Below are positions 729-35,019 of a stretch of DNA of 64,000 bases, piece by piece. A model generated the notes under the pieces. The model did not search any database. It saw only the letters and a program-made list of their open reading frames with translations, and had not been told where the DNA came from. The DNA comes from Alphaproteobacteria bacterium (GTDB lineage: Bacteria > Pseudomonadota > Alphaproteobacteria > GCA-2731375). The first letter of the stretch is position 1. The number at the start of each line of letters is the position of its first letter. The translations under genes were made by a program, and so were the position numbers. The DNA is taken from positions 1,664,001-1,728,000 of the forward strand of contig CBDDPY010000002.1 of NCBI GenBank assembly GCA_965232515.1, written 5' to 3'.

Positions 729-1871
729 ATGGCGCAAGATCAATCCGACAACCGACAGGCCTTCCGGTTCTTCGACAACCGGGAAAAGTATCTGCTGTTC
801 GTCACTACCTGCAGCGAGAAATGGGCGGTCTCGGAACGGGTCGGCCGCGAACTGCTGCAACTGACGCCGAAACCGCCGGCGCTGAGACTGTTCGACGCCG
901 GCATGGGCGACGCCACGGTGCTGACCCGGGTGATGCGCGACATGCACTGCCGCTTTCCGACGGTGCCGTTCTTCGTGGTCTGCAAGGAAATCAGCATGGA
1001 GGACGTGCGGCTGAGCCTGGAGAAGATGGCCGACCGCTTCTTCGAGCATCCACAGACCGTGCTGGTCGTGACCAACATGTACTATTCGGAAGCGCCCTGG
1101 CTGCGACCGAACAAACGGGAGGCGGCGGATGCGCTGGAATGGTGGCCGATCCCGCTGCAGGGCAGCACGGCGCACGAATTCGACGCCCAGATCAAGGCGC
1201 TGCAGCCCTATCTCAGCGCCGGCTGGCAGACCCGGACCAGCGAGAAGACCGGCAATCCGCTCTATCAGAAGCCGGCCGTGATGGTGCTCTACCGCTCGGA
1301 CCAGCGCTTCGTCCTGGACCGCATCATGCCCGAGCCCGGCGGCATCGAGGCGAATTATGACCTCGTCATCGCCTCGCAGCCCTATCGCGCCCGGCTGCCG
1401 GCGGAGCTCAAGGTGCGCAATGTGCTGGCGCCGTTGTCGCGCGCCCTGGGCCCCGGTGGCCGCATGGTCGTCGTGCAGAGCACCGGTCGAGACCCCGGCA
1501 TGGAGATCATCAACCGCATCTGGCCGGACGAGCGGCCGTTCCGCACGCCGGCGCGGTCGCTGATCACGGCGCTCCGCGACAAGCTGAAAGACGAGATCCC
1601 CGACCTCAATTTCGGCGGCGATCACGACGAGCACGCGCTGTTCAAATATCATCTGCATGCGCTGCCAAACGAGATCGGCAGCAGCATCGGCACCTCGACG
1701 CTGCTGGCGGCCTGGAACGCGGCGATCTACGTGGCCCAGATCGACGACGGCCAGCTCGCCGAGGCGCTGGCCGACGGCCGCTATCTCGACGTGACGCAAG
1801 AGGTATTGCTAGAGCATGACGGTCTATGGTTCCTCGACGAGTCCTTCGTCGTCTCGCGGCCGGCTGCCTGA
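729..1871 (+). CDS. Conserved hypothetical protein, class I SAM-dependent methyltransferase-like
   Basis: 380 aa ORF with GC3-biased codons. LFDAGMGDA resembles SAM motif I, plus YDLVIASQ and ALGPGGRMVVV motifs. Confidence 0.7.
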   Translation: MAQDQSDNRQAFRFFDNREKYLLFVTTCSEKWAVSERVGRELLQLTPKPPALRLFDAGMGDATVLTRVMRDMHCRFPTVPFFVVCKEISMEDVRLSLEKMADRFFEHPQTVLVVTNMYYSEAPWLRPNKREAADALEWWPIPLQGSTAHEFDAQIKALQPYLSAGWQTRTSEKTGNPLYQKPAVMVLYRSDQRFVLDRIMPEPGGIEANYDLVIASQPYRARLPAELKVRNVLAPLSRALGPGGRMVVVQSTGRDPGMEIINRIWPDERPFRTPARSLITALRDKLKDEIPDLNFGGDHDEHALFKYHLHALPNEIGSSIGTSTLLAAWNAAIYVAQIDDGQLAEALADGRYLDVTQEVLLEHDGLWFLDESFVVSRPAA

Positions 1872-2530: not shown

Positions 2531-3340
2531 ATGTCCGACCGAGCCCAATCCGTTGACGACACCGCCCTGCACCTTGCCGGACAGCACGCGCTGGTGACTG
2601 GCGGCGGGCGGGGGATTGGGGCGGCGATCGCGGTCGAGCTGGCGCGACTGGGTGCGGATCTGACGCTGACCGGACGCTCGGAAGCGCACCTCGACATCAC
2701 GGCGACCGAAATCAACGACCGCTACCAGGTCCGGGTCGCGATCTGTCCGATGGATATCTCGGTCGAGACAGCGGTGCGGGACACCGTAGCGTTCGCGGCC
2801 GAGAAGCTGGGGCCACCGACGATCCTGATCAACAATGCCGGCGTCGCGCCGGCCGGCCCGTTCGAGGACCTGGACCTGGAGATCTGGCGGCACGCCTTCA
2901 GCGTCAATGTCGAGGGCGTGTTCCTGTGTACGCACGCCGTCCTGAACGGCATGCGCGAGGCCGGCTGGGGCCGAATCGTCAACATCGCCTCGACCGCCGG
3001 CCTGACGGCCTATCCCCATGTCGCGGCCTATGTCGCCTCGAAGCACGCGGTGGTCGGGATGACCCGGGCGCTGGCGCTGGAGCTGGCCCGCACCGGCGTT
3101 ACCGTGAACGCGGTCTGCCCGGGCTACACCGAGACCGACATGGCGCAGGGCGCGATCGATAACCTCGTCGCCGCCGGCCGCTCGGAGGACGAGGCCCGCA
3201 AACTGTTGGCGAAGAAGAACCCGCAAGGCCGTCTGGTGCAGCCGGACGAGGTCGCGCAGGCCGTCGGCTGGCTCTGCCTGCCGAGCTCCGCGGCCGTCAC
3301 CGGCCAGGCCATCGCCGTCGCCGGCGGCGAAGTGATGTAG
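2531..3340 (+). CDS. SDR family NAD(P)-dependent oxidoreductase (abm-cluster type)
   Basis: TGGGRGIG, NNAG and YVASK motifs. Confidence 0.92.
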   Translation: MSDRAQSVDDTALHLAGQHALVTGGGRGIGAAIAVELARLGADLTLTGRSEAHLDITATEINDRYQVRVAICPMDISVETAVRDTVAFAAEKLGPPTILINNAGVAPAGPFEDLDLEIWRHAFSVNVEGVFLCTHAVLNGMREAGWGRIVNIASTAGLTAYPHVAAYVASKHAVVGMTRALALELARTGVTVNAVCPGYTETDMAQGAIDNLVAAGRSEDEARKLLAKKNPQGRLVQPDEVAQAVGWLCLPSSAAVTGQAIAVAGGEVM

Positions 3341-3353: not shown

Positions 3354-3869
3354 ATGGACGATCCGACGCCATTGCAAACGAACGGCGCGCCGGACAAGGA
3401 AGCCGGCGTCCAGCACGAAGACAAGCTGGAGCTGCGCGTCTGGCTGCGCCTGTTGACCTGCGCCACCATGATCGAGCGCGAGGTGCGCGGCCGCCTGCGC
3501 CGCGATTTCGAGATCACGCTGCCGCGCTTCGACGTGCTGGCCCAGCTCGACCGCGCCACGGATGGCCTGACCATGGGCGAGCTGTCGGGCCGGCTGATGG
3601 TCTCGAACGGCAACATCACCGGGCTGATCGACCGGCTGGTGGCGGAAGGCCTGGTGACGCGGGCCGCCAAGCCCGGCGACCGGCGCAGCGTGCACGTGCG
3701 CCTGACCGACAAGGGCAAGCAGGCCTTCGACGCCATGACCCCGGCGCACGAGGCCTGGATCGACGAGATGCTGGCTGGCCTGTCGCGCCGCGAGATGGCC
3801 GAGCTCTACGACCTGCTGGCGCGGTTGAAATCCTCGGCGTCTCCCGCCGAGATGGAAACGGGTGACTGA
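3354..3869 (+). CDS. MarR family transcriptional regulator
   Basis: [32 protein letters not shown] and [10 protein letters not shown] motifs. TGATG overlap with the next gene. Confidence 0.93.
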
Positions 3870-5083
3870 TGGCGGATAAATCGTTTCTCGACTGGCCGTT
3901 CTTCGAAGACGGCCACCGGGCCTTGCATGTGGAGCTGGAGACCTGGGCGCGCGACAACCTGGCGCCGCTGGAGCACGGCGAGGACGCCGATGCGATCTGC
4001 CGCGAGATGGTGCGGCGGTTGGGCGACGGCGGCTGGCTTTCCTACGTGATCCCGCAGGCCTATGGCGGCATTTACGAACGGCTCGACGTGCGCTCGATCT
4101 GCCTCGCCCGCGAGGTGCTGGCGCGCACGGCGGGCGGCCTCGCCGACTTCGCCTTCGTCATGCAGGGGCTTGGCACCGGCGCGATCTCGCTGTTCGGCAG
4201 CGAGGAGATCAAACGCCGCTACCTGCCACCGGTCTGTGCCGGCGACCGCATCGCCGCCTTCGCCTTATCGGAGCCGCAGGCCGGTTCGGATGTCGCCAAC
4301 GTGTTGACCACGGCGCGCGAGGATGGCGACGACTTCGTGCTGGACGGTCAGAAGACCTGGATCTCGAACGGCGGCATCGCGCACCAATACGTGGTCTTCG
4401 CGCGCACCAGCGACGACGGTGCCAAGGGCTTGAGCGCCTTCGTCGTCGAGGCCGACACGCCGGGCCTGGAGATCACCGAGCGCATTGAGATCATTGCGCC
4501 GCATCCGATGGCGACGCTGACCTTCAAGGACTGCCGCGTGCCGAAGACGCATCTGTTGGGCGAGGTCGGCCAGGGCTTCAGGATCGCCATGACCAGCCTC
4601 GATATCTTCCGCACATCGGTGGGCGCGGCCGGCCTCGGCTTTTCAAGGCGAGCGCTCGACGAAGCGATCGGGCGCTGTCAGGAGCGCGAGGCCTTCGGCC
4701 AGAAGATCGCCGAGTTCCAGCTGGTGCAAGAAAAGCTCGCCGACATGGCGACCGATATCGACGCCAGCGCGCTGCTGATCTACCGCTCGGCCTGGACCAA
4801 AGATAGCGGCGCCGCGCGCGTCACCCGCGAGGCCTCGATGGCGAAGATGTATGCGACCGAGGCCGCGCAGCGCGTGGTCGACGCCGCCGTGCAGCTGTTC
4901 GGCGGCACGGGCGTGGTCGCGGGCGCGACGGTGGAACGCCTCTATCGCGAGGTCCGGGCCCTGCGGATCTACGAGGGCACGACGGAGATCAACAAGCTGG
5001 TGATCGCGCGCCAGACGCTGGCCGCGCAGGCCGAAGCCGCGGCCATGGAAAAGGCGCTCGACCGTGCCGGAGGCGCCCGATGA
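3869..5083 (+). CDS. Acyl-CoA dehydrogenase
   Basis: [20 protein letters not shown] and RIYEGTTE motifs. Confidence 0.94.
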
Positions 5084-6549
5084 AGCTGCTGGAACCGCTC
5101 GATATCAACGGCATGGTTCTGCCGAACCGCGTCATCGTGCCGGCCATGGTGACGCGGCTCTCGGGCGAGGACGGCTATGTCAACGACGACATCATCGACC
5201 GCTACGCGCGCTATGCCGAGGGGCATGTCGGGCTGATCGTCGTCGAGGCGACGGCGATCCACCAGTCGAAGTCGGGCCCGCTGCTGCGCCTGTCGGACGA
5301 CGCCTTCGTGCCGGGCCACCGCGAGCTGGTGAAGCGCGTGCACGACGCATCGGATTCGAAGGTCGTGCCGCAGATCATCCACTTCATGAAGATCGCGCGC
5401 TCCGGCTGGCGGCAGACCATCGAGATGCTGGAGCAGGCGGATATCGACAAGATCATCGCCGATTTCGGCACCGCCGCGGCGCGGGCGCGCGAGGCCGGCT
5501 ATGACGGCGTCGAGCTGCACTCGGCGCACGCCTATACCCTGTCGTCGTTCCTGTCGCGCCACAACAAGCGCCGCGACGGCTATACCGGCAAGACGCTGGA
5601 AGGCCGGCTGAAGATGTTCGGCCAGGTGATGACCGAGGTGCGCCGGCAGGTCGGCCACGACTGGCCGGTCGGCGTCCGGTTCCTGGCCGAGGAGGCGATC
5701 AAGGACGGCTACGCCCTGCCCGACTCCAAGCGCATCGCGCTGCGCATGGCGCAGATGGGCGCCGACTACATCTCGCTGTCGGTCGGCGGCAAGTTCGAGG
5801 ACGCCGTGCCCAAGCCCGGCCACCCGGTCTATCCCTATACCGGCTATTCCGGCGACCGCTGCATGCCAGGCGACTGGTATCCGGACCTGCCGCACGCACA
5901 CCTCGCCGCCGGCATCAAGCAGTACATCAACGCCAAGGGCTATGACGTGCCGGTGGTTTCGATCGGCAAGATCAACGATCCGCGGGAGGCCGAGAGCCTG
6001 CTGCAGGACGGCAAGGCCGACCTGATCGGCATGGCCCGCCAATTGCTGGCCGATCCGGACTGGCCGCGAAAAGTGGAGGAAGGCCGGCCGGACGAGATCC
6101 TGCATTGCATCTATTGCAACGTCTGCAAGCAGCTCGACGAGAACTTCAAGAAAGTCACCTGCTTCCTCTGGCCGAAGAACAACCTGCAGGCCCCGGCCGA
6201 CATCGCCGGCGCCGTGCACCCGACCTGGCCGGCGGGCGGCGCCGGGCTCAGCGCCGACGTCGTGGACGGCCGGATCAAGCTGGCCTGGAACAAGGCCGAG
6301 GGCGACGGCATCATCGGCTACGACGTCTATCGGGCCGAGGACGGCGAGGCCGAGACGTCCTGCATCGAGGCGGTGAAGAGCGCGAAATACGCCGACCGGC
6401 TGGTGCTGGGCGGCCTGACCTACCGCTACTATGTCCGCGCCTTCGACGCCCAGGGCCGCGCCAGCCCGCCGTCGAACGCCATCACCATAGAGATGCCGAT
6501 GCCCGACTTCGAGCCGAGCCTGCCAGACGGAGCCGTGGAACATGCCTGA
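5080..6549 (+). CDS. NADH:flavin oxidoreductase (Old Yellow Enzyme family) with [4Fe-4S] Cys motif and C-terminal fibronectin type III-like domain
   Basis: [32 protein letters not shown] and CIYCNVC-x11-C motifs. The tail IKLAW...GYDVYR...[14 protein letters not shown] has the FN3 pattern. ATGA overlap with the upstream gene. Confidence 0.88.
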
Positions 6550-8194
6550 GCCGAAGGCGCCGGGCGGCACGTCCGCCCACGTCGACACGTTCGCCGCCGA
6601 CCATCTGCCGCCGCAAGCCGAGTGGCCGCCGATGGACTACAGCCAGCCGGCGGAGCTGGCGAAGTACCCCGATCGCATGAACTGCGCCGCGTGGCTGCTG
6701 GACCGGCAGATCGAGAAGTTCGGCGAACGGCCGGTGCTGCGCACGCCGGACAGCATGTGGACCTATAACGAGCTGCACGACGTCGCCAACCGGATCGCCA
6801 ACGTGCTGGTCGACGAGCTGGGCGTCGAGCCGGGCAACCGGGTACTGATGCGGAGCCCGAACAATCCGATGTATGTCGCCTGCTGGTTCGCGGTGATGAA
6901 GGTGGGTGCCGTCGCGGTGGCGACCATGCCGCTGCTGCGCGCCCGCGAACTGACATACATTGCCGACCTGGCGCAAGTTAAGGTCGCCTTGTGCGACAAG
7001 CGCCTGGCCGAGGAAATGGAGATCACGGTCGAGAAGTCGGCGACGCTGAAGAAGGCGATCTATTTCAACGGCGACGACGCGGACGGTCTGGAAGCGCGGC
7101 TGTCGGACAAATCGGCGAGCTTCGACAATGTCGACACGGCGGCCGACGATGTCTGCCTGATCGCCTTCACCTCGGGCACCACCGGCCAGCCCAAGGGCTG
7201 CATGCATTTCCACCGCGACATCCTGGCGATCTGCGATACCTTCTCGCGCTACATCCTGCAGCCCGGGCCGGACGATATCTTCGCGGGCTCGCCGCCCATT
7301 GCCTTCACCTTCGGCCTGGGCGCGCTGGTCACCTTCCCCATGCATGCCGGCGCCTCGAGCCTGCTGATCGAGAGCTACACGCCAGATACCATGCTCGCCG
7401 CCATCGCCGAGCACGAGGTGAGCGTGCTGTTCACGGCGCCAACCATGTACCGGGCGCTGACGCCGCTCGCCGCAAAGCAGGAGCTGCCGAGCCTGAAGAA
7501 ATGCGTCTCGGCCGGCGAGAGCCTGCCGAAGCCGACCTGGGACGACTGGCACGCCGCCACCGGCATCCGGATCATTGACGGCATCGGCTCGACCGAACTG
7601 CTGCATATCTTCATCGCCTGCGCCGGCGACGACATCCGCCCGGGCGCGACCGGCAAGCCGATCCCGGGCTACGCGGCGACCATCGTGGACGACGCCGGCA
7701 ACGAGGTGCCCGACGACACGGTCGGACGCCTCGCCGTGCGCGGGCCGACGGGCTGCCGCTACATGTCGAACCCGGAGCGCCAGGCAACCTACGTGCGGAA
7801 CGGCTGGAACCTGACGGGCGATGCCTATCTGCGCGATGCCGACGGCTATTTCTGGTACCAGGCGCGGACCGACGACATGATCATTTCGGCCGGCTACAAC
7901 ATCGCCGGGCCGGAGGTGGAATCGGTCCTGATGGAACACCCGAGCGTCGCCGAATGTGCTGTTGTGGGCGCGCCGGACCCGGAGCGCGGCGAGATCGTCA
8001 AGGCTTTCGTGGTGCTGCGCGACGGCGCCGCGGCCAACGACGAAACCGCGAAGGCGCTGCAGGACCACGTCAAGGCGACCATCGCGCCCTACAAGTATCC
8101 GCGCGCCGTCGCCTTCCTCGACGCCCTGCCGAAGACCCAGACCGGCAAGATCCAGCGCTTCGTCCTGCGCGAGCAGGAAGCGGCCGCCAAGTGA
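6542..8194 (+). CDS. Aromatic acid-CoA ligase (2-aminobenzoate/benzoate-CoA ligase, AbmG-like)
   Basis: SAHVDTFA.DHLPP N-terminus, FTSGTTGQPKG, DGIGSTE, TGDAY and LPKTQTGKIQR motifs. Confidence 0.9.
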   Translation: MPEPKAPGGTSAHVDTFAADHLPPQAEWPPMDYSQPAELAKYPDRMNCAAWLLDRQIEKFGERPVLRTPDSMWTYNELHDVANRIANVLVDELGVEPGNRVLMRSPNNPMYVACWFAVMKVGAVAVATMPLLRARELTYIADLAQVKVALCDKRLAEEMEITVEKSATLKKAIYFNGDDADGLEARLSDKSASFDNVDTAADDVCLIAFTSGTTGQPKGCMHFHRDILAICDTFSRYILQPGPDDIFAGSPPIAFTFGLGALVTFPMHAGASSLLIESYTPDTMLAAIAEHEVSVLFTAPTMYRALTPLAAKQELPSLKKCVSAGESLPKPTWDDWHAATGIRIIDGIGSTELLHIFIACAGDDIRPGATGKPIPGYAATIVDDAGNEVPDDTVGRLAVRGPTGCRYMSNPERQATYVRNGWNLTGDAYLRDADGYFWYQARTDDMIISAGYNIAGPEVESVLMEHPSVAECAVVGAPDPERGEIVKAFVVLRDGAAANDETAKALQDHVKATIAPYKYPRAVAFLDALPKTQTGKIQRFVLREQEAAAK

Positions 8195-9210
8195 CGGCGG
8201 CGGCCGAAGCCGCCTGGCGGGCGGCGACACGGATGCATCACCGCTATCTGACCGGGTTGATCCTCTACACCCTGCAGAAGCGCGGCGAGGAAGCCGCGAC
8301 GGAACTGGTGTTCCGCACCTTCCGCGAGCAGCATCACGAGAAGTTCCTGCCCGGCCTGAAGCGGCTCGGCCTCGAGGGGCTGCCGCCGGCGGTGGCGGTG
8401 GGGCGGTATTTCTATCTGGCGAACGGCATGGGCGGCGTGAAGATGGAGCTGATGCCGGAATCCGAGACCAAGGTCTGGATCCGCTATCCGCCGCCGCGCT
8501 GGATTTGGGAGGGCGCGGCGATCTGCGCTGTGCCGACGCCGGTATCGCTCGCCTTCCCCCGCGCCTTCCACTCGCAGTGCGGCGTCAGCATGGGCGTGCC
8601 GAACCTGGGCTTCGTCTGCACCGCCGTCACCACCGACGGCGAGCCGGGCCTGGAAGGCTACTTCAAGATGTTTGACCGTGACCTGGCGGGCGACGAACGC
8701 CTGCAGTTCGCCCGCGGCGAGCCGAGCCCGGACTTCGATTCCGCCGCGGCGCCGGTCATCGACCTGACGCCGTCACAACGCGTGAAGTCGCGGCGGAACT
8801 ATGCGCTGCAGTTCGTGCGCACCATGCTGCCGATCGCCGTCGACATGTTCGGCCCCGATCTGCCGCGCGAGGCGGCCGTGCTGATCGGCATGCACCATGC
8901 CGAGGAAACGGCGGAGATACTTGAAAAAAATACCAATGATATCAATGGCTTTTCCGATTATTTTGCTGCGATGCTTGAGGGCAGCGGCGAGACCGTCGAG
9001 CGAGATGGTTCGGCGATCCGCATGCACGGCTGGCGGCTGATGCAGGACAAGCCGGACGTCACGGCCGGCGTGTTCGACGCCTGGCACGGCCTGTGGGAAG
9101 GCGCGCTAATGACCGCCAACCGGCGTCTCACCCTGCATATTGAGCAGCGCGCGGACCGCACTTCAGAACATTGGCAATGGCGCGTGGGTGACGCTGCCCG
9201 GCCGGTCTAG
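8191..9210 (+). CDS. Conserved hypothetical protein
   Basis: GTG start overlaps the ligase stop (GTGA). 339 aa with coding-like codon bias. The upstream extension to 7954 in the track overlaps the ligase and is not used. Confidence 0.75.
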   Translation: MTAAAEAAWRAATRMHHRYLTGLILYTLQKRGEEAATELVFRTFREQHHEKFLPGLKRLGLEGLPPAVAVGRYFYLANGMGGVKMELMPESETKVWIRYPPPRWIWEGAAICAVPTPVSLAFPRAFHSQCGVSMGVPNLGFVCTAVTTDGEPGLEGYFKMFDRDLAGDERLQFARGEPSPDFDSAAAPVIDLTPSQRVKSRRNYALQFVRTMLPIAVDMFGPDLPREAAVLIGMHHAEETAEILEKNTNDINGFSDYFAAMLEGSGETVERDGSAIRMHGWRLMQDKPDVTAGVFDAWHGLWEGALMTANRRLTLHIEQRADRTSEHWQWRVGDAARPV

Positions 9211-9797
9211 CGTTTGCTCCAGGCCAAGGCGTCCTCGAGGCGGTCGTCGCCCCAGAAGATCTCGCCGTCGACCGCGAATGTCGGCGAACCGAAGATGCCC
9301 AGCGCGCGGGCCGCGTCGGTCTCGTCCTCTAATCGTTGGACATTGTCGTCCGCGTTGGCGGCGGCGATGACGGCGGCCGGATCCTTGTCCAGAGACCGAA
9401 GCACGTGTTCGACGTTGTCGTCGACGCCGAGCGGCCGATCTTCAAGGAACCAGGCGCGATAGCTCGCCTTCGTGTAGTCGGGGCACCAGCCCTCCTTGGC
9501 CGCCAGCACGCCGACGCGGTTGGCAAGCAGATCGGGATCGACCGGATATTGCGGCTGGCCGCGGTATTCGAGGCCGTAGCCGGCCGCGCGGCGTTCCAGA
9601 TCGCGCCACATATAGGCCGCCTTCGCCGGCTTGGTGGCGAAGGGAATGTTGTCCATTTCCAGCATGATCGCGCGGACGTTGAACGGGCGCCAGTTGACAT
9701 TGACGCCAGCCTCCGCCGCCGCCTGCTCGATCCGCATGACGCTCAGGTAGGTGTAGGTGCTGCCGTAGAAAAAGAAGAAATCGATCGATGCGGACAT
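9207..9797 (-). CDS. 2-hydroxychromene-2-carboxylate isomerase / DsbA (GST-kappa-like) family protein
   Basis: IDFFFFYGSTYTY, YMWRDLER and GIFGSPTF.VDGEIFWGDDRL motifs. Confidence 0.9.
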   Translation of the reverse strand: MSASIDFFFFYGSTYTYLSVMRIEQAAAEAGVNVNWRPFNVRAIMLEMDNIPFATKPAKAAYMWRDLERRAAGYGLEYRGQPQYPVDPDLLANRVGVLAAKEGWCPDYTKASYRAWFLEDRPLGVDDNVEHVLRSLDKDPAAVIAAANADDNVQRLEDETDAARALGIFGSPTFAVDGEIFWGDDRLEDALAWSKR

Positions 9798-26139: not shown

Positions 26140-27306
26140 ATGAAGAAGAAACTCGTCGGACTAGTGTCCGCGTTGGCGCTGTTGGCGACGCCGTCGCTCG
26201 CCGCGGATACGGTCAAGGTTGGCTTTATCGTGACCCTGTCGGGGCCGGCCGGCATCATCGGCAAGCACATGAAGGACGCCTTCGAACTTGGGCTCGAGCA
26301 TGTCGGCGGCAAGATCGGCGGCCTGGAGACCGAGGTCATCTTTGGCGACGATCAGCGTAAGCCGGATGTCGCCAAGCAACTGGTTGACAAGATGATCAAA
26401 CGCGACCGCGTCCAGTTCGTGACCGGCATCATCTGGTCGAACCTGATGATGGCGATCCATGGCCCCGTCACGCGCTCGGATACCTTCCTGATCAGCTCCA
26501 ATGCCGGCCCCTCGCCGATCGCCGGCAAGCGCTGCTCGGAGAACTTCTTCTCGGTGTCCTGGCAGAACGACCAGACGCCCGAGGCGATGGGCAAGTACCT
26601 GCAGGACAAGGGCATCGACAATGTCTACCTGATGGCGCCGAACTACCAGGCTGGCAAGGACATGCTCGCCGGCGTGCAGCGCTACTATAAGGGCAAGGTC
26701 GCCGGCCAGGTTTTCACCAAGCTGGGCCAGCAGGACTATTCGGCCGAACTGTCGACGCTGCGCGCGGCCAAACCCGACGCCGTTTTCGTCTTCCTGCCGG
26801 GCGGCATGGGCATCAACTTCGTCAAGCAGTACGCCCAGGCCGGCTTGAAAGACTCGATCCCGCTCTACACCGCCTTCACCGCCGACGCCGTGACCCTGCC
26901 GGCGCAGAAGGACGCGGCGCTGGGCGTGCTGGGCACCCAGACCTGGAGCCCCGACCTCGGCAACCCCGTGAACAAGCGCTTCGTCGAGGATTTCAAAGCG
27001 AAGTACGGCTACATCCCGTCGTTCTACGCCGCCCAGGCCTATGACACCGTGCGCTTCCTCGACGCCGCCGTCGCTAAGGTCGGCAATGTCAGCGACCGCG
27101 ACGCGCTGCGCGCGGCCATGCGGTCGGGCGACTTCCCGAACACCCGGGGCTCGATCAAGTTCAATAACAACCACTTCCCGATCCAGAACTTCTACATGCG
27201 CGAAGTGGTCAAGCAGGACGACGGCAGCTTCACCACGAAGATCCAGGGCATCGTCTTCCCGGCCTATGGCGACAGCTATGCCAAAGACTGCAAGATGAGC
27301 TGGTAG
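26140..27306 (+). CDS. ABC transporter substrate-binding protein (Liv/HAAT family, aromatic-acid type)
   Basis: Signal peptide, DDQRKPD, SNAGPSPIAG, SWQNDQ and APNYQAGKD motifs. Confidence 0.92.
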   Translation: MKKKLVGLVSALALLATPSLAADTVKVGFIVTLSGPAGIIGKHMKDAFELGLEHVGGKIGGLETEVIFGDDQRKPDVAKQLVDKMIKRDRVQFVTGIIWSNLMMAIHGPVTRSDTFLISSNAGPSPIAGKRCSENFFSVSWQNDQTPEAMGKYLQDKGIDNVYLMAPNYQAGKDMLAGVQRYYKGKVAGQVFTKLGQQDYSAELSTLRAAKPDAVFVFLPGGMGINFVKQYAQAGLKDSIPLYTAFTADAVTLPAQKDAALGVLGTQTWSPDLGNPVNKRFVEDFKAKYGYIPSFYAAQAYDTVRFLDAAVAKVGNVSDRDALRAAMRSGDFPNTRGSIKFNNNHFPIQNFYMREVVKQDDGSFTTKIQGIVFPAYGDSYAKDCKMSW

Positions 27307-27326
27307 ACCTGATGGTCTGACGCTGG

Positions 27327-27360
27327 ACGGGGACGCCGAAAGGGCGTCCCCGTTTCTGTT
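27327..27360 (+). terminator. Hairpin after the SBP gene (terminator or differential-stability element)
   Basis: ACGGGGACGCC-GAAAG-GGCGTCCCCGT followed by TTCTGTT. Confidence 0.65.
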
Positions 27361-27404
27361 GGCGGCCCGGCGCCGCGCAGCCTACGACGAGGAAACATTC
27401 CGAT

Positions 27405-28328
27405 ATGGACGGCTTGCTGCTGCTGGAGCAGACGTTCAACGGCCTGCAGTTCGGCGTCATGCTGTTCCTGATGGCGGCCGGGCTGACGCTCGTGTTCGGC
27501 ATCATGGACATGGTCAACCTGGCGCACGGCTCGCTGTATATGGTCGGCGCCTATATCGCGACGACCTTCACCCAGTGGACCGACTCGTTCGTGCTCGGCA
27601 TCCTGCTGGCCGTGCCGGCGACGGCGCTCGTCGGCATTGTCGTTGAAGTGGTGGTGCTGCGGACGCTCTACGACCGCGACCACCTGGACCAGGTGCTGGC
27701 CACCTTCGGGCTGATCCTGTTCTTCAACGAGCTGGTGCGTATCGTCTGGGGACCGGCGGCGCTGTTTTCGGACATCCCCGCTTTCCTGCAGGGCCAGGTC
27801 GAAATCATCCCCGGGGCCCCCTACCCGGCCTATCGCCTGGCGATCATCGGCGTCGGCCTGGCGGTGGCGCTGGCGCTCTACCTGATCGTCAGCCGCACCC
27901 GCATGGGCATGCTGATCCGCGCCGGCGCCAGCAACCGTGAAATGGCCGGCGCACTGGGTGTGAACATCAAGCTGCTGTTCACGCTGGTCTTCGGCCTCGG
28001 CGCCGCCTTTGCGGGCCTCGCCGGCATGATGACCGGGCCGATCACCACGGTCGAGCCGGGCATGGGCGATCCGATCCTGATCCTGGCCTTCGTCGTCATC
28101 ATCATCGGCGGGATCGGCTCCGTGCGCGGCGCCTTCGTGGCGGCGATCCTGGTCGGCCTGGTCGATACCATCGGCCGGGCCTTCCTGCCGCAGTTCTTCC
28201 GCCTGTTCGTCGCCGACTCGACGGCAGACGCGGTCGGGCCGGCCGTGGCCTCGATGCTGATCTACATTCTGATGGCCGCGGTCCTGTTCTTCCGCCCCCA
28301 GGGCCTGTTCCCGGCCCGGACCGGCTGA
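27405..28328 (+). CDS. HAAT ABC transporter permease (LivH-like)
   Basis: AAGLTLVFG..MVNLAHG, IIGGIGS and RPQGLF motifs. Confidence 0.93.
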   Translation: MDGLLLLEQTFNGLQFGVMLFLMAAGLTLVFGIMDMVNLAHGSLYMVGAYIATTFTQWTDSFVLGILLAVPATALVGIVVEVVVLRTLYDRDHLDQVLATFGLILFFNELVRIVWGPAALFSDIPAFLQGQVEIIPGAPYPAYRLAIIGVGLAVALALYLIVSRTRMGMLIRAGASNREMAGALGVNIKLLFTLVFGLGAAFAGLAGMMTGPITTVEPGMGDPILILAFVVIIIGGIGSVRGAFVAAILVGLVDTIGRAFLPQFFRLFVADSTADAVGPAVASMLIYILMAAVLFFRPQGLFPARTG

Positions 28329-28336
28329 GCCCGAAC

Positions 28337-29311
28337 ATGCAAATCCTGCGACAGCCCCGTATTCTGGCGCAATTGATCCTGCTGGCGCTGCTGGCAGCCG
28401 TGCCGCCAATCATGACGGCGATCGACGAGCCCTTCTACACCAGCCTGTTCACCCGGATCATGATCTTCGCCATCGCCGCGGCCAGCCTGGATCTGATCCT
28501 GGGCTTTGGCGGCATGGTCAGCTTCGGTCACGCCGCCTATATCGGCGTCGGCGCCTATTCCGTCGGTATCCTGAGCTTCTATGGGGTCGACAACGGCTTT
28601 ATTCAGTTTCCGCTGGCGGTCCTGCTGTCGGCGGTGTTCGCCACCGTGATCGGCGCCATCTGCATCCGCACATCGGGCGTCTATTTCATCATGATCACGC
28701 TCGCCTTCGCGCAGATGCTGTACTTCCTCGGCATCAGCCTGGAGGAATATGGCGGCGACGACGGCATGCCGGTTTACCGCAGCGAGTTCGGCGGCCTGAT
28801 CGACCTCTACGACGCCAACCATCTCTATTACCTGGTTTTCGCCGTGCTCGCCGCGACGCTCTATTTCGGTCACCGCCTGGTCAATTCCCGTTTCGGCATG
28901 GTCGTGCGCGGCATGAAATCGAACAGCCTGCGCATGAGCGCCGTCGGCTACCCGGTCTATCGCTACCGGCTGGCCGCCTATGTGATCTCGGGCACGATGT
29001 GCGGCGTCGCCGGCGCGCTGTTCGCCAACTGGTCCGAGTTCGTCAGCCCGGACATCATGCATTGGGTGCGGTCGGGCGACCTGATCATCATGGTCATCGT
29101 CGGCGGCATGGGCACGCTGTTCGGACCGGTATTGGGCGCCACCGCCTTCCTGCTGATGGAAGAATACCTGCCGGAAATCATCGAAGGCGCGGCGCCGGGC
29201 GCCGGCGAGCACTGGCATTTCGTGTTCGGCCCGATCCTGATCCTGATCGTGCTGTTCGCCAAGGGCGGCATCTTCGGCCTTTTCGCCGGCCGGGAGCGGT
29301 CCGATGACTGA
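28337..29311 (+). CDS. HAAT ABC transporter permease (LivM-like)
   Basis: GMVSFGHA, YFIMITLAFAQ and VGGMGTLFGP motifs. Confidence 0.93.
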   Translation: MQILRQPRILAQLILLALLAAVPPIMTAIDEPFYTSLFTRIMIFAIAAASLDLILGFGGMVSFGHAAYIGVGAYSVGILSFYGVDNGFIQFPLAVLLSAVFATVIGAICIRTSGVYFIMITLAFAQMLYFLGISLEEYGGDDGMPVYRSEFGGLIDLYDANHLYYLVFAVLAATLYFGHRLVNSRFGMVVRGMKSNSLRMSAVGYPVYRYRLAAYVISGTMCGVAGALFANWSEFVSPDIMHWVRSGDLIIMVIVGGMGTLFGPVLGATAFLLMEEYLPEIIEGAAPGAGEHWHFVFGPILILIVLFAKGGIFGLFAGRERSDD

Positions 29312-30059
29312 GCCGATGCTGGAGGTCGAGGGTCTGGTCAAACGCTTCGGCGGCCTGACTGCGACGGACGACCTGAGCCTGACCGTCACCGTCGGCGAGA
29401 TCCACGCCATCATCGGCCCGAACGGCGCCGGCAAGACCACGTTGATCGCCCAGCTCTCCGGCGACCTGACGCCCGACGACGGCCGCATCCGCTTCGCTGG
29501 CCGGGACATCACCGGGCTGCGATCGGACGAACGCTCGCATCTGGGCCTGGCGCGGTCGTTCCAGATCACCAGCATTTTTCCCGACTTCTCGGCGCTCGAC
29601 AACGTGGCGCTTGCCGTGCAGGCACATGCCGGTCACTCGTTCCGCTTCTGGTCGCGGGCGCGCCGAGACGGGGCCCTGCGGACGCCGGCGATGGCGGCGC
29701 TCGACGAGGTCGGCCTGGCGGACCGCGCCGGGATCACCGCGGCCAATCTGAGCCATGGCGAGCAGCGGCAGCTGGAAATCGCCATGGCGCTGGCGACCGG
29801 GCCAGAGCTGTTGCTGCTGGACGAGCCGATGGCCGGCATGGGCGTGGACGAGTCGGCACGTATGATCGAGCTGTTGCAGGGCCTCAAAGGCCGCCACACG
29901 ATCGTGCTGATCGAGCATGACATGGACGCGGTGTTCGCGCTGGCCGATCGGATCACGGTGCTGGTCTACGGCCGCGCCATCGCCACCGGCGCGCCGGCTG
30001 AGATCCGCGCCAACGCCGAGGTCCGGCAGGCCTATCTGGGGGACGATCATGGCGACTGA
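29304..30059 (+). CDS. ABC transporter ATP-binding protein (LivG-like)
   Basis: GPNGAGKTT, LSHGEQRQLE, LLLLDEP and IEHD motifs. Confidence 0.94.
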   Translation: MTEPMLEVEGLVKRFGGLTATDDLSLTVTVGEIHAIIGPNGAGKTTLIAQLSGDLTPDDGRIRFAGRDITGLRSDERSHLGLARSFQITSIFPDFSALDNVALAVQAHAGHSFRFWSRARRDGALRTPAMAALDEVGLADRAGITAANLSHGEQRQLEIAMALATGPELLLLDEPMAGMGVDESARMIELLQGLKGRHTIVLIEHDMDAVFALADRITVLVYGRAIATGAPAEIRANAEVRQAYLGDDHGD

Positions 30060-30077
30060 GCGGACCGATGGTTAACG

Positions 30078-30779
<702 letters not shown>

Positions 30780-32860: not shown

Positions 32861-33646
32861 ATGACGGAACAATCGGAGACGGCGGTCCTGGTCAGCCGGC
32901 CGGCGGCCTTTGTCACGCAGCTTCAGATCAACCGGCCGAAGGCCATGAACGCGCTGAACGGCGCCGTGCTGGGCGGCATCGCCGCGGCGCTGGCCGATGC
33001 CGTCGACGACGACGAGGTGCGCTGCGTCGTGCTGACCGGCGACCAGCGGGCCTTCGCGGCCGGCGCCGATATCAAGGAGATGCCAACCCGCACGCCGGCC
33101 ACCGTGCTGACCGACAAGCGCGGCGAGCACTGGCACGCCGTCGCCAGCTTCCCGAAGCCGATCATCGCGGCCGTGAACGGTTATGCCTTGGGCGGCGGCT
33201 GCGAGCTCGCCATGTCGTGCGACATCATCGTCGCCGGCGAGAACGCCATGTTCGGCCAGCCGGAGGTCAATCTCGGCATCATCGCCGGCGCCGGCGGTAC
33301 GCAGCGGCTGGTCAAGGCGGTCGGCAAGTCCGTCGCCATGAAGATGCTGCTGGCCTCCGAATTCATCGACGCCGACACGGCGCTGGCCTCGGGACTGGTG
33401 GCCGATGTGGTCGCCCCGGAATTGACCCTGGAACGGGCCGTGGCGCTGGCCGAGACCATCGCCGCGAAGGCGCCGCTGGCCGTGCGGCTGACGAAGCAGG
33501 CCGTGCTGCGCTCGTTCGACGTCAGCATCGAGGCCGGGCTGCAGTTCGAGCGCAATTGCTCGGCCGCCCTGTTCGGCACCGAGGACCGCCTGGAAGGCGT
33601 CACCGCCTTCATCGAGAAGCGCAAGGCCGATTTCAAGAACCGCTGA
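32861..33646 (+). CDS. paaF: Enoyl-CoA hydratase (2,3-dehydroadipyl-CoA hydratase-like)
   Basis: AFAAGADIKE, GGGCEL and QPEVNLG motifs (both catalytic Glu), in paa context. Confidence 0.78.
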   Translation: MTEQSETAVLVSRPAAFVTQLQINRPKAMNALNGAVLGGIAAALADAVDDDEVRCVVLTGDQRAFAAGADIKEMPTRTPATVLTDKRGEHWHAVASFPKPIIAAVNGYALGGGCELAMSCDIIVAGENAMFGQPEVNLGIIAGAGGTQRLVKAVGKSVAMKMLLASEFIDADTALASGLVADVVAPELTLERAVALAETIAAKAPLAVRLTKQAVLRSFDVSIEAGLQFERNCSAALFGTEDRLEGVTAFIEKRKADFKNR

Positions 33647-33669
33647 GCCGGCGTCGAGGGAGGAAACCG

Positions 33670-34473
33670 ATGAGCTACGAGACCATCACGCTGGAGAAGA
33701 CCGACGGCGTCGCCCGGCTGACGCTGAACCGGCCGGACAAGATGAATGCGCTGAGCCGCGACATGGTCGGCGAGCTGAGCGACGCCATCAAGCATATCGC
33801 CCGCGACAAGGAAATCCGGGCCGTGCTGATGACGGGCAATGGTCGCGGCTTCTGCGCCGGCGCCGATCTGGCCGAAGGCATGATGCGGAACGACGGCAAC
33901 GTCGATCTGGGCAAGCAGGTCGCCGACGGCATGGAGCGCCTGCACAACCGGCTGGTCCGGGCGCTGGCCAAGCTGGAGAAGCCCGTCGTCGCGGCGGTGA
34001 ACGGCGCCGCCGCCGGCGGCGGCATGAGCCTGGCGCTGACTGCCGATATCGTGATTGCCGCCAAATCGGCCTATTTCGTGCTGGTCTTCGGCCCCAATCT
34101 CGGCATCGTGCCTGATATGGGCGCGTCCTGGCTGACGCCGCGGCTGATCGGCGACGCCCGCGCCCGCGGCATGGCGCTGACCGGCGAGCGCATCCCGGCC
34201 GAGCAGGCCGCCGAGTGGGGCATGATCTGGAAAGCGGTCGACGATGACGCGCTGCTGGACGAGGCGCAGACGCTGGCGGCGAAACTGGCGGCCGGCCCGA
34301 CCCTCGGCTTCGGCCTGATCAAGCGCGCGCTGCTGGCCTCGGGCCAGAACAGCCTCGACGCCCAACTCGACATGGAGCGGGACATGCAGAACATCGCCGC
34401 GCGCAGCCATGATTTCACCGAGGGCGTCGCCGCCTTCGTCGCCAAGCGGCCGCCGGCCTTCAAGGGACATTGA
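33670..34473 (+). CDS. paaG: 1,2-epoxyphenylacetyl-CoA isomerase-like crotonase
   Basis: FCAGADL, NGAAAGGG, LGIVPDMG (catalytic Asp) and WGMIWKAVDD motifs. GGAGG RBS upstream. Confidence 0.85.
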   Translation: MSYETITLEKTDGVARLTLNRPDKMNALSRDMVGELSDAIKHIARDKEIRAVLMTGNGRGFCAGADLAEGMMRNDGNVDLGKQVADGMERLHNRLVRALAKLEKPVVAAVNGAAAGGGMSLALTADIVIAAKSAYFVLVFGPNLGIVPDMGASWLTPRLIGDARARGMALTGERIPAEQAAEWGMIWKAVDDDALLDEAQTLAAKLAAGPTLGFGLIKRALLASGQNSLDAQLDMERDMQNIAARSHDFTEGVAAFVAKRPPAFKGH

Positions 34474-34483
34474 GTTCAGCCGC

Positions 34484-34942
34484 ATGAACGAGATGTCGGA
34501 CGCCATCGCGCTGGAGATCGCGACCAAGGCCGGCGACGCCATGTACGACCGCGATTACGCGGCCCAGGCGCTCGGCATCAAGCTGGAGGAGATCCGTCCC
34601 GGCTTTGCCCGGATGAGCATGACCGTACGCGACGACATGGTGAACGGCCACGATATGTGCCATGGCGGGTTCACGTTCACGCTCGCCGACACCACGCTCG
34701 CCTATGCCAGCAATTCCTACAACGCCGTCGCCGTCGCCCAGACCGCAACCATTACCTTCACCTCGCCCGGTCGCCGCGGTGAAGTGCTGACCGCGGTCAG
34801 CGAGGAGCGCAGCCACGGCGGCCGCACCGGCATCTACGACGTCGTCGTCACCGGCGAGGACGGCCGCGCAATCGCCCACTTCCGCGGCATCACCCAGCGC
34901 ATCAAGGGCGAGGTGGTGACCGGGCTGCCGGTCTCGCAATAG
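34484..34942 (+). CDS. paaI: Hydroxyphenylacetyl-CoA thioesterase
   Basis: MVNGHDMCHGGFTFTLADT hot-dog motif and GIYDV. Confidence 0.9.
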   Translation: MNEMSDAIALEIATKAGDAMYDRDYAAQALGIKLEEIRPGFARMSMTVRDDMVNGHDMCHGGFTFTLADTTLAYASNSYNAVAVAQTATITFTSPGRRGEVLTAVSEERSHGGRTGIYDVVVTGEDGRAIAHFRGITQRIKGEVVTGLPVSQ

Positions 34943-35019
34943 ACACATGCGGGGCGACGGAATGTCGCGGCGACTGAAACAATCGCGACGTCGACGTCGC
35001 GAGTCGACCCGCTTAGATA

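What the first reader, a model, noticed from the sequence alone, without database searches (positions are those of the whole stretch)
5080..6549. Old Yellow Enzyme-[4Fe-4S]-fibronectin III fusion
Seen: an OYE barrel (HSAHAY) followed by CIYCNVC-x11-C, then a ~80 aa domain at about 6247-6492 with the FN3 pattern (L.W, GYDVYR, YRYYVRA, S.PS). There is no signal peptide. Known: Fe-S-bearing OYEs such as 2,4-dienoyl-CoA reductase continue into an FAD/NAD(P)H domain, and bacterial FN3 domains occur mostly in secreted hydrolases. Inference: FN3 occupies the place of the electron-input domain and may dock a partner such as the coupled ACAD, ligase, ETF or ferredoxin.
Basis: partly seen in the sequence, partly recalled or inferred. 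Interest (0 to 1): 0.7.

Follow-up and report, generated by a model that had tools for sequence, protein, structure and literature searches.

The report
Iron-sulfur flavoenzyme with fibronectin-III tail
This gene encodes a real, widely conserved but unstudied bacterial enzyme in which a flavin barrel and an iron-sulfur site are followed by a small fibronectin-type-III domain instead of the usual electron-input module, and it belongs to gene clusters for breaking down anthranilate-like aromatic acids.

Summary
Observation confirmed. ORF 5080-6549 (+), 489 aa, has a YqjM/FadH-like Old Yellow Enzyme barrel (HSAHAY), an invariant CxxCxxCx11C motif and a true seven-strand FN3 domain (tail model pLDDT 92; best fold matches all FN3). 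It is no chimera: the best 120 homologues and the 80 genome loci kept share the architecture, but only 1 of 120 carries an fn3 annotation.

Context is new. The gene sits in a conserved cassette, SDR-MarR-(ECH)-(ACAD)-OYE-aryl-CoA ligase. The same cassette flanks 2-aminobenzoyl-CoA monooxygenase/reductase (ACMR) in other Pseudomonadota. All 13 sampled genomes with this enzyme also encode ACMR (42 of 287 without it), and in two ACMR lies in the same cluster. A three-cysteine sister family without FN3 fills the same slot.

A homodimer model passes its controls (0.58 against 0.00). In it the FN3 of one subunit clasps the barrel of the other, so FN3 looks like a subunit clamp rather than a redox-partner dock. 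The substrate, the electron donor and the conserved C-terminal His-Ala end remain open.

This scan noted the same architecture before in another genome (e1-2504129). I found no paper describing it. Interest is moderate: a new variant of a known kind.

The parts
5080..6549 (+). Whole ORF, 489 aa plus stop: OYE barrel, 4-Cys motif, linker, FN3, C-terminal tail
5080..6105 (+). Old Yellow Enzyme (FMN) TIM barrel, residues 1-342
   Evidence: Pfam PF00724 E 5e-48. PDB sequence hits are YqjM-type OYEs at E 6e-33 and FadH 1ps9 at E 6e-31. Foldseek best hit is 1ps9.
5518..5535 (+). HSAHAY, the H-x-x-H-x-Y substrate-binding and proton-donor motif of YqjM-type OYEs
   Evidence: Aligned to HAAHGY of 9iuv. 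Present as H.AHAY in 120 of 120 homologues.
5791..5895 (+). Family-specific insert loop (residues 238-272, KFEDA...[14 protein letters not shown]), almost invariant but low confidence in the monomer model
   Evidence: Invariant columns. pLDDT 43-56. Residues 254-259 and 266-274 lie in the predicted dimer interface. Shared with the sister family.
6106..6162 (+). C343-x2-C346-x2-C349-x11-C361, the putative [4Fe-4S] binding motif
   Evidence: Present in 120 of 120 homologues. Aligns within the FadH match.
6163..6219 (+). Linker (residues 362-380) holding the invariant FLWPK and the A of QAP
6220..6504 (+). Fibronectin type III domain (residues 381-475; strands 391-471)
   Evidence: Residues 396-398, 421, 440-445 and 474-479 contact the other subunit in the dimer model.
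6505..6546 (+). Flexible C-terminal tail (residues 476-489) ending in His-Ala
   Evidence: 63 of 120 homologues end in HA and 93 of 120 have H[AVG] in the last four residues. The tail after the last strand is mostly 22-24 residues long. pLDDT about 52.
2531..3340 (+). SDR dehydrogenase of the conserved cassette
   Evidence: Pfam. Present in 61 of 64 loci.
3354..3869 (+). MarR-family regulator of the cassette
   Evidence: Pfam. Present in 60 of 64 loci.
3869..5083 (+). Acyl-CoA dehydrogenase; its stop overlaps the OYE start
   Evidence: Pfam. Present in 44 of 64 loci. Nearest solved relatives are 5jsc and 5idu at E 1e-145.
6542..8194 (+). Aryl-acid CoA ligase (benzoate-CoA ligase family); its start overlaps the OYE end
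   Evidence: TIGR02262 scores 386 bits against a cut-off of 375. Best solved relative is anthranilate-CoA ligase 4wv3 at E 1e-91. Present in 71 of 74 loci.
26140..30779 (+). Branched-chain-type ABC transporter. Its binding protein is the best own-genome match (56% identity) of the one that follows the ligase in relatives.
   Evidence: 21 of 63 loci have it directly after the ligase

Best explanation
The gene encodes a cytoplasmic, probably homodimeric FMN/[4Fe-4S] flavoenzyme of the Old Yellow Enzyme family. It keeps the ene-reductase active site of YqjM-type enzymes and the Fe-S motif of FadH-type enzymes, but a fibronectin-III domain stands where the FAD/NAD(P)H module would be. In the dimer model the FN3 and the short MPxP stretch after it reach across and clasp helices on the barrel of the partner subunit. 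FN3 therefore most likely acts as a subunit clamp and not as an electron-input domain. The enzyme is an accessory redox step of the CoA-dependent aerobic pathway for 2-aminobenzoate-like (or salicylate-like) aromatic acids. That pathway starts with an aryl-CoA ligase and the ACMR monooxygenase/reductase. The enzyme most likely reduces, or in the reverse direction desaturates, a C=C bond of an aryl-derived or alicyclic CoA thioester made in that pathway. Electrons would reach or leave the FMN through the Fe-S cluster from a carrier encoded elsewhere, or come directly from NAD(P)H at the FMN.

Shown: the architecture, its conservation, the cassette, and the genomic link to ACMR. Predicted by models: the dimer and the FN3 contacts. 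Inferred: cofactors, substrate class, direction and electron source.
For: Cassette: ligase in 71 of 74 loci, SDR in 61 of 64, MarR in 60 of 64, ACAD in 44 of 64, ECH in 43 of 64.

The same gene set lies beside ACMR. In 20 ACMR loci picked from the 58 places, homologues of the ECH (19 of 20, 61-75% identity), ACAD (17 of 20, 49-62%), MarR (17 of 20) and ligase (15 of 20, 50-58%) lie within 9 kb.

Co-occurrence in one class sample of 300 genomes: 13 of 13 genomes with the FN3 enzyme have ACMR over its cut-off, against 42 of 287 without it. Fisher p is 7e-11 if genomes are treated as independent, which they are not.

In L118 and L119 the order is ACMR, SDR, MarR, ECH, ACAD, OYE-FN3, ligase in one cluster.

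Dimer: ipSAE 0.58, 0.69 and 0.57 (median 0.58), best of 3 controls 0.00. The runs share at least 87% of contacts and the partner pLDDT is at least 88. The mark was reached by 20 of 30 proteins solved as pairs of one chain and by 1 of 23 solved as single chains, and these counts hold only roughly because my own alignment was used. The least-error contacts are FN3 residues 440-445 and 396-398 with residues 171-175 and 221-225 of the other copy.

Ligase kinship to anthranilate and benzoate CoA ligases.
Against: No cofactor, substrate or oligomeric state has been measured.

Solved YqjM-type OYEs are oligomers, so the barrel-barrel part of the dimer pass may be remembered likeness. Only the FN3 contacts cannot be.

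A cis packing of FN3 on its own barrel is not excluded, because I could not read model coordinates.

Conserved residues are not clearly enriched in the FN3 side of the interface: by my own reading, 6 of 15 interface residues are at least 90% conserved, against about 34 of 100 in the domain.

Many ACMR clusters work without any such OYE: none of the 20 loci has one, and 33 of 55 ACMR-positive genomes in the sample have neither OYE type. Its step is therefore optional.

No redox partner gene is conserved nearby.

In this genome ACMR lies 1.25 Mb away, without the cassette.

The genomes compared are related, so the co-occurrence statistic overstates.
Confidence: 0.5

Rival explanations
1. The FN3 is a docking platform that recruits an external electron carrier or a cassette enzyme (ETF, ferredoxin or flavodoxin, the ACAD or the ligase) to the Fe-S cluster.
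For: An Fe-S cluster without its own NAD(P)H/FAD module needs some partner. The short form of BilR is a precedent for a barrel-only OYE with a separately encoded flavodoxin-like BilS and a MarR regulator (PMC10769871, passages read). A conserved charged patch on the FN3 (R418, E430-K433) is not explained by the dimer contacts. Overlapping stop and start codons with the ACAD and the ligase suggest co-translation.
Against: No ETF gene lies in any of 80 loci and a ferredoxin lies near in 1 of 80. The genome has a single ETF pair about 3.6 Mb away. The ACAD is missing from 20 of 64 loci. The sister family fills the same slot without FN3. The dimer model uses the FN3 for subunit contacts.
Confidence: 0.2
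2. The enzyme runs as a dehydrogenase, like trimethylamine dehydrogenase. A CoA-thioester intermediate is oxidised at the FMN, and the electrons leave through the Fe-S cluster to the housekeeping ETF and the respiratory chain. This concerns direction only and is compatible with the FN3 clamp.
For: The cysteine spacing C-x2-C-x2-C-x11-C and the missing NAD(P)H module fit an enzyme that passes electrons to an outside acceptor. TMADH is among the sequence and fold matches. The hosts are aerobes with ACADs that already feed ETF. That TMADH passes electrons to ETF is recalled, not taken from a call.
Against: The H-x-x-H-x-Y site is that of reductive YqjM-type OYEs. The best matches are reductases: YqjM-type OYEs by sequence, and FadH (1ps9), YqjM-type OYEs and NCR by fold. 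No ETF gene is linked.
Confidence: 0.25
3. The FN3 is a passive leftover or cap. It packs on its own barrel, merely shields the surface and the Fe-S site exposed by loss of the FAD domain, and has no binding role. The enzyme takes NAD(P)H directly at the FMN like a classical OYE.
For: The monomer model already gives pTM 0.86 with a confidently folded FN3. The classical OYE active site is intact. The sister family manages without FN3.
Against: The FN3 is kept at 41-86% identity across 45 tails, with an invariant linker (P381, W383) and a tail of fixed length ending in His-Ala. That speaks for selection on more than bulk. The dimer model's most confident contacts are FN3 in trans.
Confidence: 0.15
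4. The fusion is an artefact: an assembly chimera, a frameshift fusion or a decaying gene.
For: None was found.
Against: The same 480-500 aa architecture occurs in complete chromosomes and cultured isolates, including Oceanibacterium hippocampi, Ferrovibrio xuzhouensis, Marinibaculum pumilum and Kordiimonadales IMCC3096. It also occurs in the best 120 homologues. GC3 is 0.92 across the ORF.
Confidence: 0.01

Closest known systems
[quoted passage not shown]
   Same: OYE barrel followed by a four-cysteine Fe-S motif. 1ps9 is the best fold match: E 3e-27, 413 aligned columns, 28% identity. The sequence match covers residues 3-378. The substrates are CoA thioesters.
   Different: Those enzymes are about 660-720 aa and continue into FAD and NAD(P)H domains. 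In a published survey, 96% of 2-enoate reductases have an FAD domain (PMC11759058, passages read). This protein ends at 489 aa with an FN3. Its active-site motif is the YqjM-type H-x-x-H-x-Y.
YqjM / thermophilic-like Old Yellow Enzymes (1Z41, 3GR7, 5NUX, 9IUV)
   Same: These are the best sequence matches in the PDB, at E 6e-33 to 3e-27. HAAHGY aligns with HSAHAY, and the ARxLLxDP phosphate-binding segment aligns too. From recall, they are oligomers that exchange C-terminal elements between subunits.
   Different: They have no Fe-S motif, no FN3 and no 28-residue insert after strand 6. They take NAD(P)H directly.
Short-form bilirubin reductase BilR with BilS (flavodoxin-like) and BilQ (MarR)
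   Same: It is a barrel-only OYE of the FadH lineage without its own NADPH module, encoded next to a MarR regulator. The electron carrier is encoded separately (PMC10769871, passages). The NCBIfam BilR N-domain model matches residues 109-362.
   Different: The score is 149 bits against a cut-off of 425. The defining HGDR motif is absent; by my own positional inference, not a direct alignment to BilR, HAYT (residues 150-153) stands there. There is no BilS-like neighbour and no FN3 in BilR. The hosts are aerobic Alphaproteobacteria, not gut anaerobes.
2-Aminobenzoyl-CoA monooxygenase/reductase (ACMR; NCBIfam PRK08255, also named salicylyl-CoA 5-hydroxylase/oxidoreductase) and its gene cluster
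   Same: It sits in the same pathway cassette: aryl-CoA ligase, MarR, enoyl-CoA hydratase PRK08258, ACAD, SDR and an ABC binding protein. Its C-terminal half is also an OYE barrel. It always co-occurs with the FN3 enzyme in the genomes sampled.
   Different: ACMR is a 770-aa fusion of an FAD monooxygenase with an OYE and has no Fe-S motif. Its OYE half is only about 28% identical to this protein. The FN3 enzyme is an extra gene, not a replacement.
Uncharacterised sister OYE family of Alphaproteobacteria (L092-L095, L120)
   Same: It is 41-48% identical over residues 67-375 and shares the YPYTG.SG..CMP insert. It fills the same slot between ACAD and ligase next to ACMR. All 9 genomes that have it also have ACMR.
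   Different: Its motif is C-x5-C-x11-C, with three cysteines and Thr at the second position, so it may hold a different cluster. An extra insert lies in the barrel. The protein ends about 40 residues after the motif, without FN3.
Trimethylamine dehydrogenase (2TMD, 1DJN)
   Same: It has an OYE barrel plus [4Fe-4S] with a similar cysteine spacing and is a fold and sequence match. From recall, it is a homodimer whose C-terminal residues embrace the partner subunit and which passes electrons to ETF.
   Different: It is 729 aa with vestigial nucleotide-binding domains, uses amine substrates and has covalently bound FMN. It has no FN3.

Membership tests
Old Yellow Enzyme family (Pfam PF00724, Oxidored_FMN) | TIM-barrel domain matching the family profile above the curated cut-off | tested here: met
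   164.5 bits against a cut-off of 27. Fold matches to 1ps9, 3gr7 and 1z41 at E 1e-24 to 3e-27.
Old Yellow Enzyme family (Pfam PF00724, Oxidored_FMN) | Substrate-binding His/His(Asn) pair and proton-donor Tyr (H-x-x-H/N-x-Y) | tested here: met
   H147, H150 and Y152 align to HAAHGY of 9iuv. Kept in 120 of 120 homologues.
Old Yellow Enzyme family (Pfam PF00724, Oxidored_FMN) | Bound FMN and ene-reductase activity | not testable with these tools
   Needs purified protein.
FadH / 2-enoate reductase / NCR type Fe-S flavoenzymes | Four-cysteine [4Fe-4S] motif directly after the barrel | tested here: met
   C343, C346, C349 and C361 in 120 of 120 homologues. Cluster binding itself was not measured.
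FadH / 2-enoate reductase / NCR type Fe-S flavoenzymes | C-terminal FAD and NAD(P)H binding domains (Pyr_redox_2 type), total length about 650-720 aa | tested here: not met
   The ORF ends at 489 aa and has no Pyr_redox hit. Residues 381-475 are FN3. The homologues are 474-552 aa. Forms longer than 856 aa were not searched.
Fibronectin type III domain (Pfam PF00041) | Profile match above the gathering score | tested here: not met
   15.4 bits against a cut-off of 25, E 0.023, tail alone. Only 1 of 120 homologues has a precomputed PF00041 hit.
Fibronectin type III domain (Pfam PF00041) | A seven-strand beta-sandwich of about 90 residues superposing on solved FN3 domains | tested here: met
   pLDDT 92.4 with seven strands. 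The fold hits listed are FN3 domains or FN3-containing proteins, with TM up to 0.88.
Fibronectin type III domain (Pfam PF00041) | Sequence kinship to bona fide FN3 repeats, with the core Trp (strand B) and Tyr (strands C and F) | tested here: met
   phmmer finds 23,884 hits, typically about 30-40% identical. 5 of 5 scanned are Pfam fn3. W403, Y414, Y448 and Y450 are conserved.
Bilirubin reductase BilR (short form) | NCBIfam equivalog score and the HGDR motif | tested here: not met
   149 bits against a cut-off of 425. The motif is defined in PMC10769871. By positional inference the sequence has HAYT there, not HGDR.
ACMR (PRK08255) | N-terminal FAD monooxygenase fused to an OYE, score over 1078 bits | tested here: not met
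   136 bits, OYE half only. The true ACMR of this genome lies at C2:2917494-2919776 and scores 1161 bits.

The most novel reading that the evidence does not exclude
The FN3-clamped dimer is a self-contained electron relay. Its Fe-S clusters take electrons not from NAD(P)H but from the cassette's own acyl-CoA dehydrogenase or from ETF. Oxidation of one CoA-thioester intermediate would then pay for reduction of another, or for reductive removal of the ring substituent of an ortho-substituted benzoyl-CoA. On this reading it is the unidentified extra step that lets these Alphaproteobacteria run the oxygen-dependent aminobenzoyl-CoA pathway with less NADH or at low oxygen. It would be a new type of NAD(P)H-independent ene-reductase with a cytoplasmic FN3 as an architectural element.
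Probability: 0.1. Interest if true: 0.75.

Novelty: new variant of a known kind. Interest (0 to 1): 0.55.

Why it matters
Fe-S Old Yellow Enzymes are studied as biocatalysts and as key steps in breaking down aromatic compounds, bile acids and bilirubin. Nearly all known ones carry their own FAD/NAD(P)H module. This family shows a third solution besides the fused module and a separate flavodoxin: a small cytoplasmic FN3 domain that appears to hold a dimer together, with the Fe-S cluster left to talk to an unknown partner.

The genomic link to ACMR also gives a concrete handle on an old gap. [quoted passage not shown] The family is hidden in databases as a plain 'NADH:flavin oxidoreductase', because the FN3 falls below Pfam's threshold.

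Tried and rejected
1. The tail is not visible to Pfam in the whole protein. Its identity had to be settled by fold and by phmmer.

2. The tail-only search of the 1.84-billion-protein library was swamped by giant multi-FN3 proteins. The best 150 are all 757-7068 aa. It therefore could not tell me which other enzymes carry a similar single FN3.

3. I rejected this because ACMR is present in this genome and in all 13 other carriers sampled.

4. I looked for a conserved ETF or ferredoxin neighbour and found none. The window itself has no ETF, and its only 2Fe-2S ferredoxin sits in an Fe-S assembly cluster 39 kb away.

5. The PRK08258-type hydratase that relatives keep between MarR and ACAD is missing from this cassette. 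Its best own-genome match (74% identity) lies at C2:5998127-5998930 in a cyclohexanecarboxylate-like cluster. Whether it serves this cassette is open.

6. Only a homodimer was sent to complex prediction. OYE with ACAD, ligase, ETF or ACMR was not tested.

7. Literature: four searches pairing OYE, ene-reductase or aminobenzoyl-CoA terms with FN3 or architecture terms gave nothing relevant. The 2-enoate reductase survey does not mention fibronectin or truncated forms in its main text; I did not open its supplements.

8. The primary paper on the Azoarcus abm clusters (PMC95408) is not held. The composition of those clusters is recalled and is checked here only indirectly, through.

9. Proteins longer than 856 aa or shorter than 268 aa were not searched for fused or split forms.
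Full report
**What is there.** The window is 66% G+C. ORF 5080-6549 on the + strand encodes 489 residues with third-position G+C of 0.92. Its ATG overlaps the stop of an upstream acyl-CoA dehydrogenase (ATGA). Its last 8 nt overlap the start of a downstream AMP-forming ligase. HSAHAY is residues 147-152. CIYCNVC-x11-C is residues 343-361. The tail motifs lie in residues 401-465.

**The barrel and the Fe-S motif.** Pfam finds only Oxidored_FMN, at E 5e-48. [quoted passage not shown] Trimethylamine and histamine dehydrogenases and naphthoyl-CoA reductase follow further down. In the printed alignment HSAHAY pairs with HAAHGY, and [13 protein letters not shown] pairs with FLARELLRNPYWP. A full-length AlphaFold model built from 120 homologues has mean pLDDT 85.2 and pTM 0.86. 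Its best fold match is 1PS9: E 3e-27, 413 columns, 28% identity. The four cysteines and the H..H.Y motif are in 120 of 120 homologues. A nearly invariant 35-residue insert (residues 238-272, KFEDA...[14 protein letters not shown]) is modelled with low confidence.

**The tail is a real FN3.** Pfam fn3 is sub-threshold and seen only when the tail is scanned alone: 15.4 bits, cut-off 25. A model of residues 378-489 from 45 tails (41-86% identical to the window's) has pLDDT 92.4 and seven strands. Its best PDB fold matches are FN3 domains or FN3-containing proteins. They include myomesin My4, the FN3 of Bacillus circulans chitinase A1 (TM 0.88 on the target, rmsd 1.6), titin, integrin beta4, cytokine receptors and the FN3 of POMGNT2. 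phmmer of the tail against 1.84 billion representatives gives 23,884 hits at E<=0.001. Giant proteins with up to 42 matched repeats lead the list. Five of five that I scanned are Pfam fn3, three of them with CBM96 and rhamnogalacturonan-lyase domains. The N-terminus aligns from residue 3 with the start of cytoplasmic OYEs, which leaves no room for a signal peptide.

**Not a chimera, and common.**
- The best 120 of 7,655 database hits are 474-552 aa, 71-100% identical and cover 96-100% of the query. Only one carries a precomputed fn3 annotation. The names given are 'NADH:flavin oxidoreductase' or '2,4-dienoyl-CoA reductase-like'.
- In one genome per species, 283 stretches encode a relative. All of the best 80 loci contain the tail; one is cut by a contig end and one is partly masked. 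They include complete chromosomes and cultured isolates.
- In an even sample of 300 genomes of the class, 13 have an orthologue at 67-77% identity. Twelve include the tail, and the thirteenth is cut by its contig end.
- Nine further genomes have a sister protein that is 41-48% identical over residues 67-375. In the four I read, the motif is C-x5-C-x11-C (three cysteines), and the protein ends about 40 residues later without FN3.
- The FN3 is therefore an addition specific to one clade.

**Gene context.** Mapping the window's neighbours on the 80 loci gives a conserved cassette, counted only where the locus reaches far enough: ligase directly downstream in 71 of 74, SDR in 61 of 64, MarR in 60 of 64, ACAD in 44 of 64, an enoyl-CoA hydratase between MarR and ACAD in 43 of 64, and an ABC binding protein after the ligase in 21 of 63. 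The commonest order is SDR-MarR-ECH-ACAD-OYE-ligase (41 of 64), then SDR-MarR-OYE-ligase (16 of 64). This window lacks the hydratase. The best own-genome match to the relatives' hydratase lies 4.3 Mb away, and the match to their transporter is at 26140-30779 of the window. The ligase passes the benzoate-CoA ligase family cut-off (386 bits against 375), and its nearest solved relative is an anthranilate-CoA ligase. The relatives' hydratase is NCBIfam PRK08258.

**Link to the aminobenzoyl-CoA pathway.**
- The genome does encode a full ACMR (PRK08255, 1161 bits, cut-off 1078). It lies 1.25 Mb away and has none of the cassette beside it.
- I took 20 ACMR loci in long contigs out of the 58 places found in 401 genomes of the phylum. 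ACMR is flanked within 9 kb by close homologues of this cassette: hydratase in 19 of 20 (61-75% identity), ACAD in 17 of 20 (49-62%), MarR in 17 of 20 and ligase in 15 of 20 (50-58%), often with the SDR and the binding protein. None of the 20 has the extra OYE.
- All 13 sampled carriers of the FN3 enzyme have an ACMR over the cut-off. In the same 300-genome sample ACMR occurs in 55, which leaves 42 of 287 non-carriers.
- All 9 carriers of the sister OYE are ACMR-positive too. Either OYE is thus found in 22 of 55 ACMR-positive genomes and in 0 of 245 ACMR-negative ones.
- Fisher p-values are 7e-11 and 1e-18, but they overstate because genomes are related, although the 13 come from 12 families.
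- In two carriers everything is in one cluster: ACMR-SDR-MarR-ECH-ACAD-OYE(FN3)-ligase in L118, and the same set with ACMR after the ligase in L119. In L120 the sister OYE sits in the same slot, with ACMR after the ligase.
- The Fe-S OYE is therefore an added, optional member of the ACMR pathway and not its substitute.
[quoted passage not shown] ACMR makes aromatic 5-hydroxyanthraniloyl-CoA when NADH is limiting (PMC3534580, passages).

**What the FN3 does.** No ETF gene lies in any of the 80 loci, and a 2Fe-2S ferredoxin lies near in one. The genome's only ETF pair is about 3.6 Mb away. A homodimer prediction with the 120-row alignment scored ipSAE 0.58, 0.69 and 0.57 (median 0.58) against 0.00 for the best of three controls. 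The runs share at least 87% of contacts, and the partner pLDDT is at least 88. In calibration the mark was reached by 20 of 30 proteins solved as pairs of one chain and by 1 of 23 solved as single chains, and these counts hold only roughly because my own alignment was used. The model supports binding; it does not show it. The contacts with the least expected error are FN3 residues 396-398 and 440-445, plus residues 474-479 just after the domain, against residues 171-186 and 206-226 of the other copy. Barrel-barrel contacts include the conserved insert (254-259, 266-274). The cysteine motif is not among the confident contacts. Solved OYEs are often oligomers, so the barrel part may be remembered likeness; no FN3-bearing OYE appeared among the PDB matches. 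Several barrel residues in the contact are conserved in this family (T172, L173, G175, L221, R222, Q225) and differ in the sister family. That is mild support by inference. I could not read coordinates, so a cis arrangement is not excluded.

**Unexplained.**
- The 22-24-residue tail after the FN3 varies in sequence but has a fixed length. It ends in His-Ala in 63 of 120 homologues and has H[AVG] in the last four residues in 93 of 120. It is not placed with confidence in either model.
- A conserved FN3 patch (R418, E430-K433) is outside the dimer contacts.
- The electron source, the direction of the reaction and the substrate are unknown.

**Comparison and novelty.** The protein passes the OYE tests and the Fe-S motif test. 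It fails the defining C-terminal FAD/NAD(P)H domains of FadH-type enzymes. It is not BilR: 149 bits against 425, and no HGDR motif. It is not ACMR. Short BilR with its separate flavodoxin-like BilS and MarR BilQ is the nearest precedent for a barrel-only Fe-S-lineage OYE (PMC10769871, passages). A survey of 2-enoate reductases reports an FAD domain in 96% and does not mention fibronectin (PMC11759058, passages; supplements not opened). Searches of the held library found no description of an OYE with FN3 or of an OYE in the aminobenzoyl-CoA pathway. This scan noted the same architecture before in another genome and reached a similar reading (e1-2504129). I rate it a new variant of a known kind, of moderate interest.

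Noticed in passing
window 8194-9210 (+): A 338-aa ORF directly after the ligase has no Pfam or NCBIfam match. Among the 80 related loci it is conserved only in the closest one (L001, 83% identity), so it is not part of the conserved cassette.
   Followed up: partly
window 729-1871 (+): A 380-aa ORF with coding-like composition (GC3 0.87) has no Pfam or NCBIfam match. It lies upstream of a glyoxalase-family gene (1875-2249).
   Followed up: no
window 9207-9797 (-); L090:7117-7713; L120:1236-1823: A DsbA-like (thioredoxin-fold, PF01323) gene recurs near these clusters. One lies downstream of the cassette here. A 35%-identical paralogue lies next to this genome's lone ACMR. A 65%-identical one lies upstream of the sister-OYE cassette in another genome.
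   Followed up: partly
L092:1346-2971, L093, L094, L095, L120:7125-8441: A sister OYE family has three cysteines (C-x5-C-x11-C, Thr at the second position), an extra barrel insert and no FN3. It sits in the same ACAD-OYE-ligase slot next to ACMR. It may hold a 3Fe-4S cluster or an unusually ligated one.
   Followed up: partly
window 5791-5895: A 35-residue insert in the barrel (KFEDA...[14 protein letters not shown], including invariant C261) is almost invariant in 120 homologues. It is shared with the sister family, yet it is modelled with pLDDT 43-56 in the monomer. It becomes part of the predicted dimer interface.
   Followed up: partly
window 6505-6546: The C-terminal tail has a fixed length and variable sequence. 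It ends in His-Ala (63 of 120) or a similar polar-plus-small pair. This looks like a tethered plug or recognition tag. Its target is unknown.
   Followed up: partly
G000:C2:5994837-6005613 (L089): A second CoA-ester cluster holds the PRK08258 hydratase (74% identical to the relatives' cassette hydratase), a cyclohexanecarboxylate-CoA-ligase-like gene (687 bits, below its cut-off of 792), a BadH-like SDR, an ABC transporter and a thiolase-like gene.
   Followed up: partly
G000:C2:2917494-2919776 (L090:9494-11833): This genome's ACMR stands apart from any ligase, ECH or ACAD cassette. All 20 other ACMR loci examined have cassette genes within 9 kb.
   Followed up: partly
protein P0003 (homologue, 552 aa): One homologue carries a 66-residue cysteine-rich N-terminal extension before the normal MKLLEPL start. 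It may be a mis-called start or a fused small zinc-ribbon-like ORF.
   Followed up: no
window 32861-36396 (+): Downstream of the ABC transporter lie two enoyl-CoA hydratase ORFs (32861-33646 and the overlapping 33217-34473), a 4HBT thioesterase and a PaaK-type (AMP-binding_C_2) ligase. This is another aromatic-acid CoA module in the same window.
   Followed up: no
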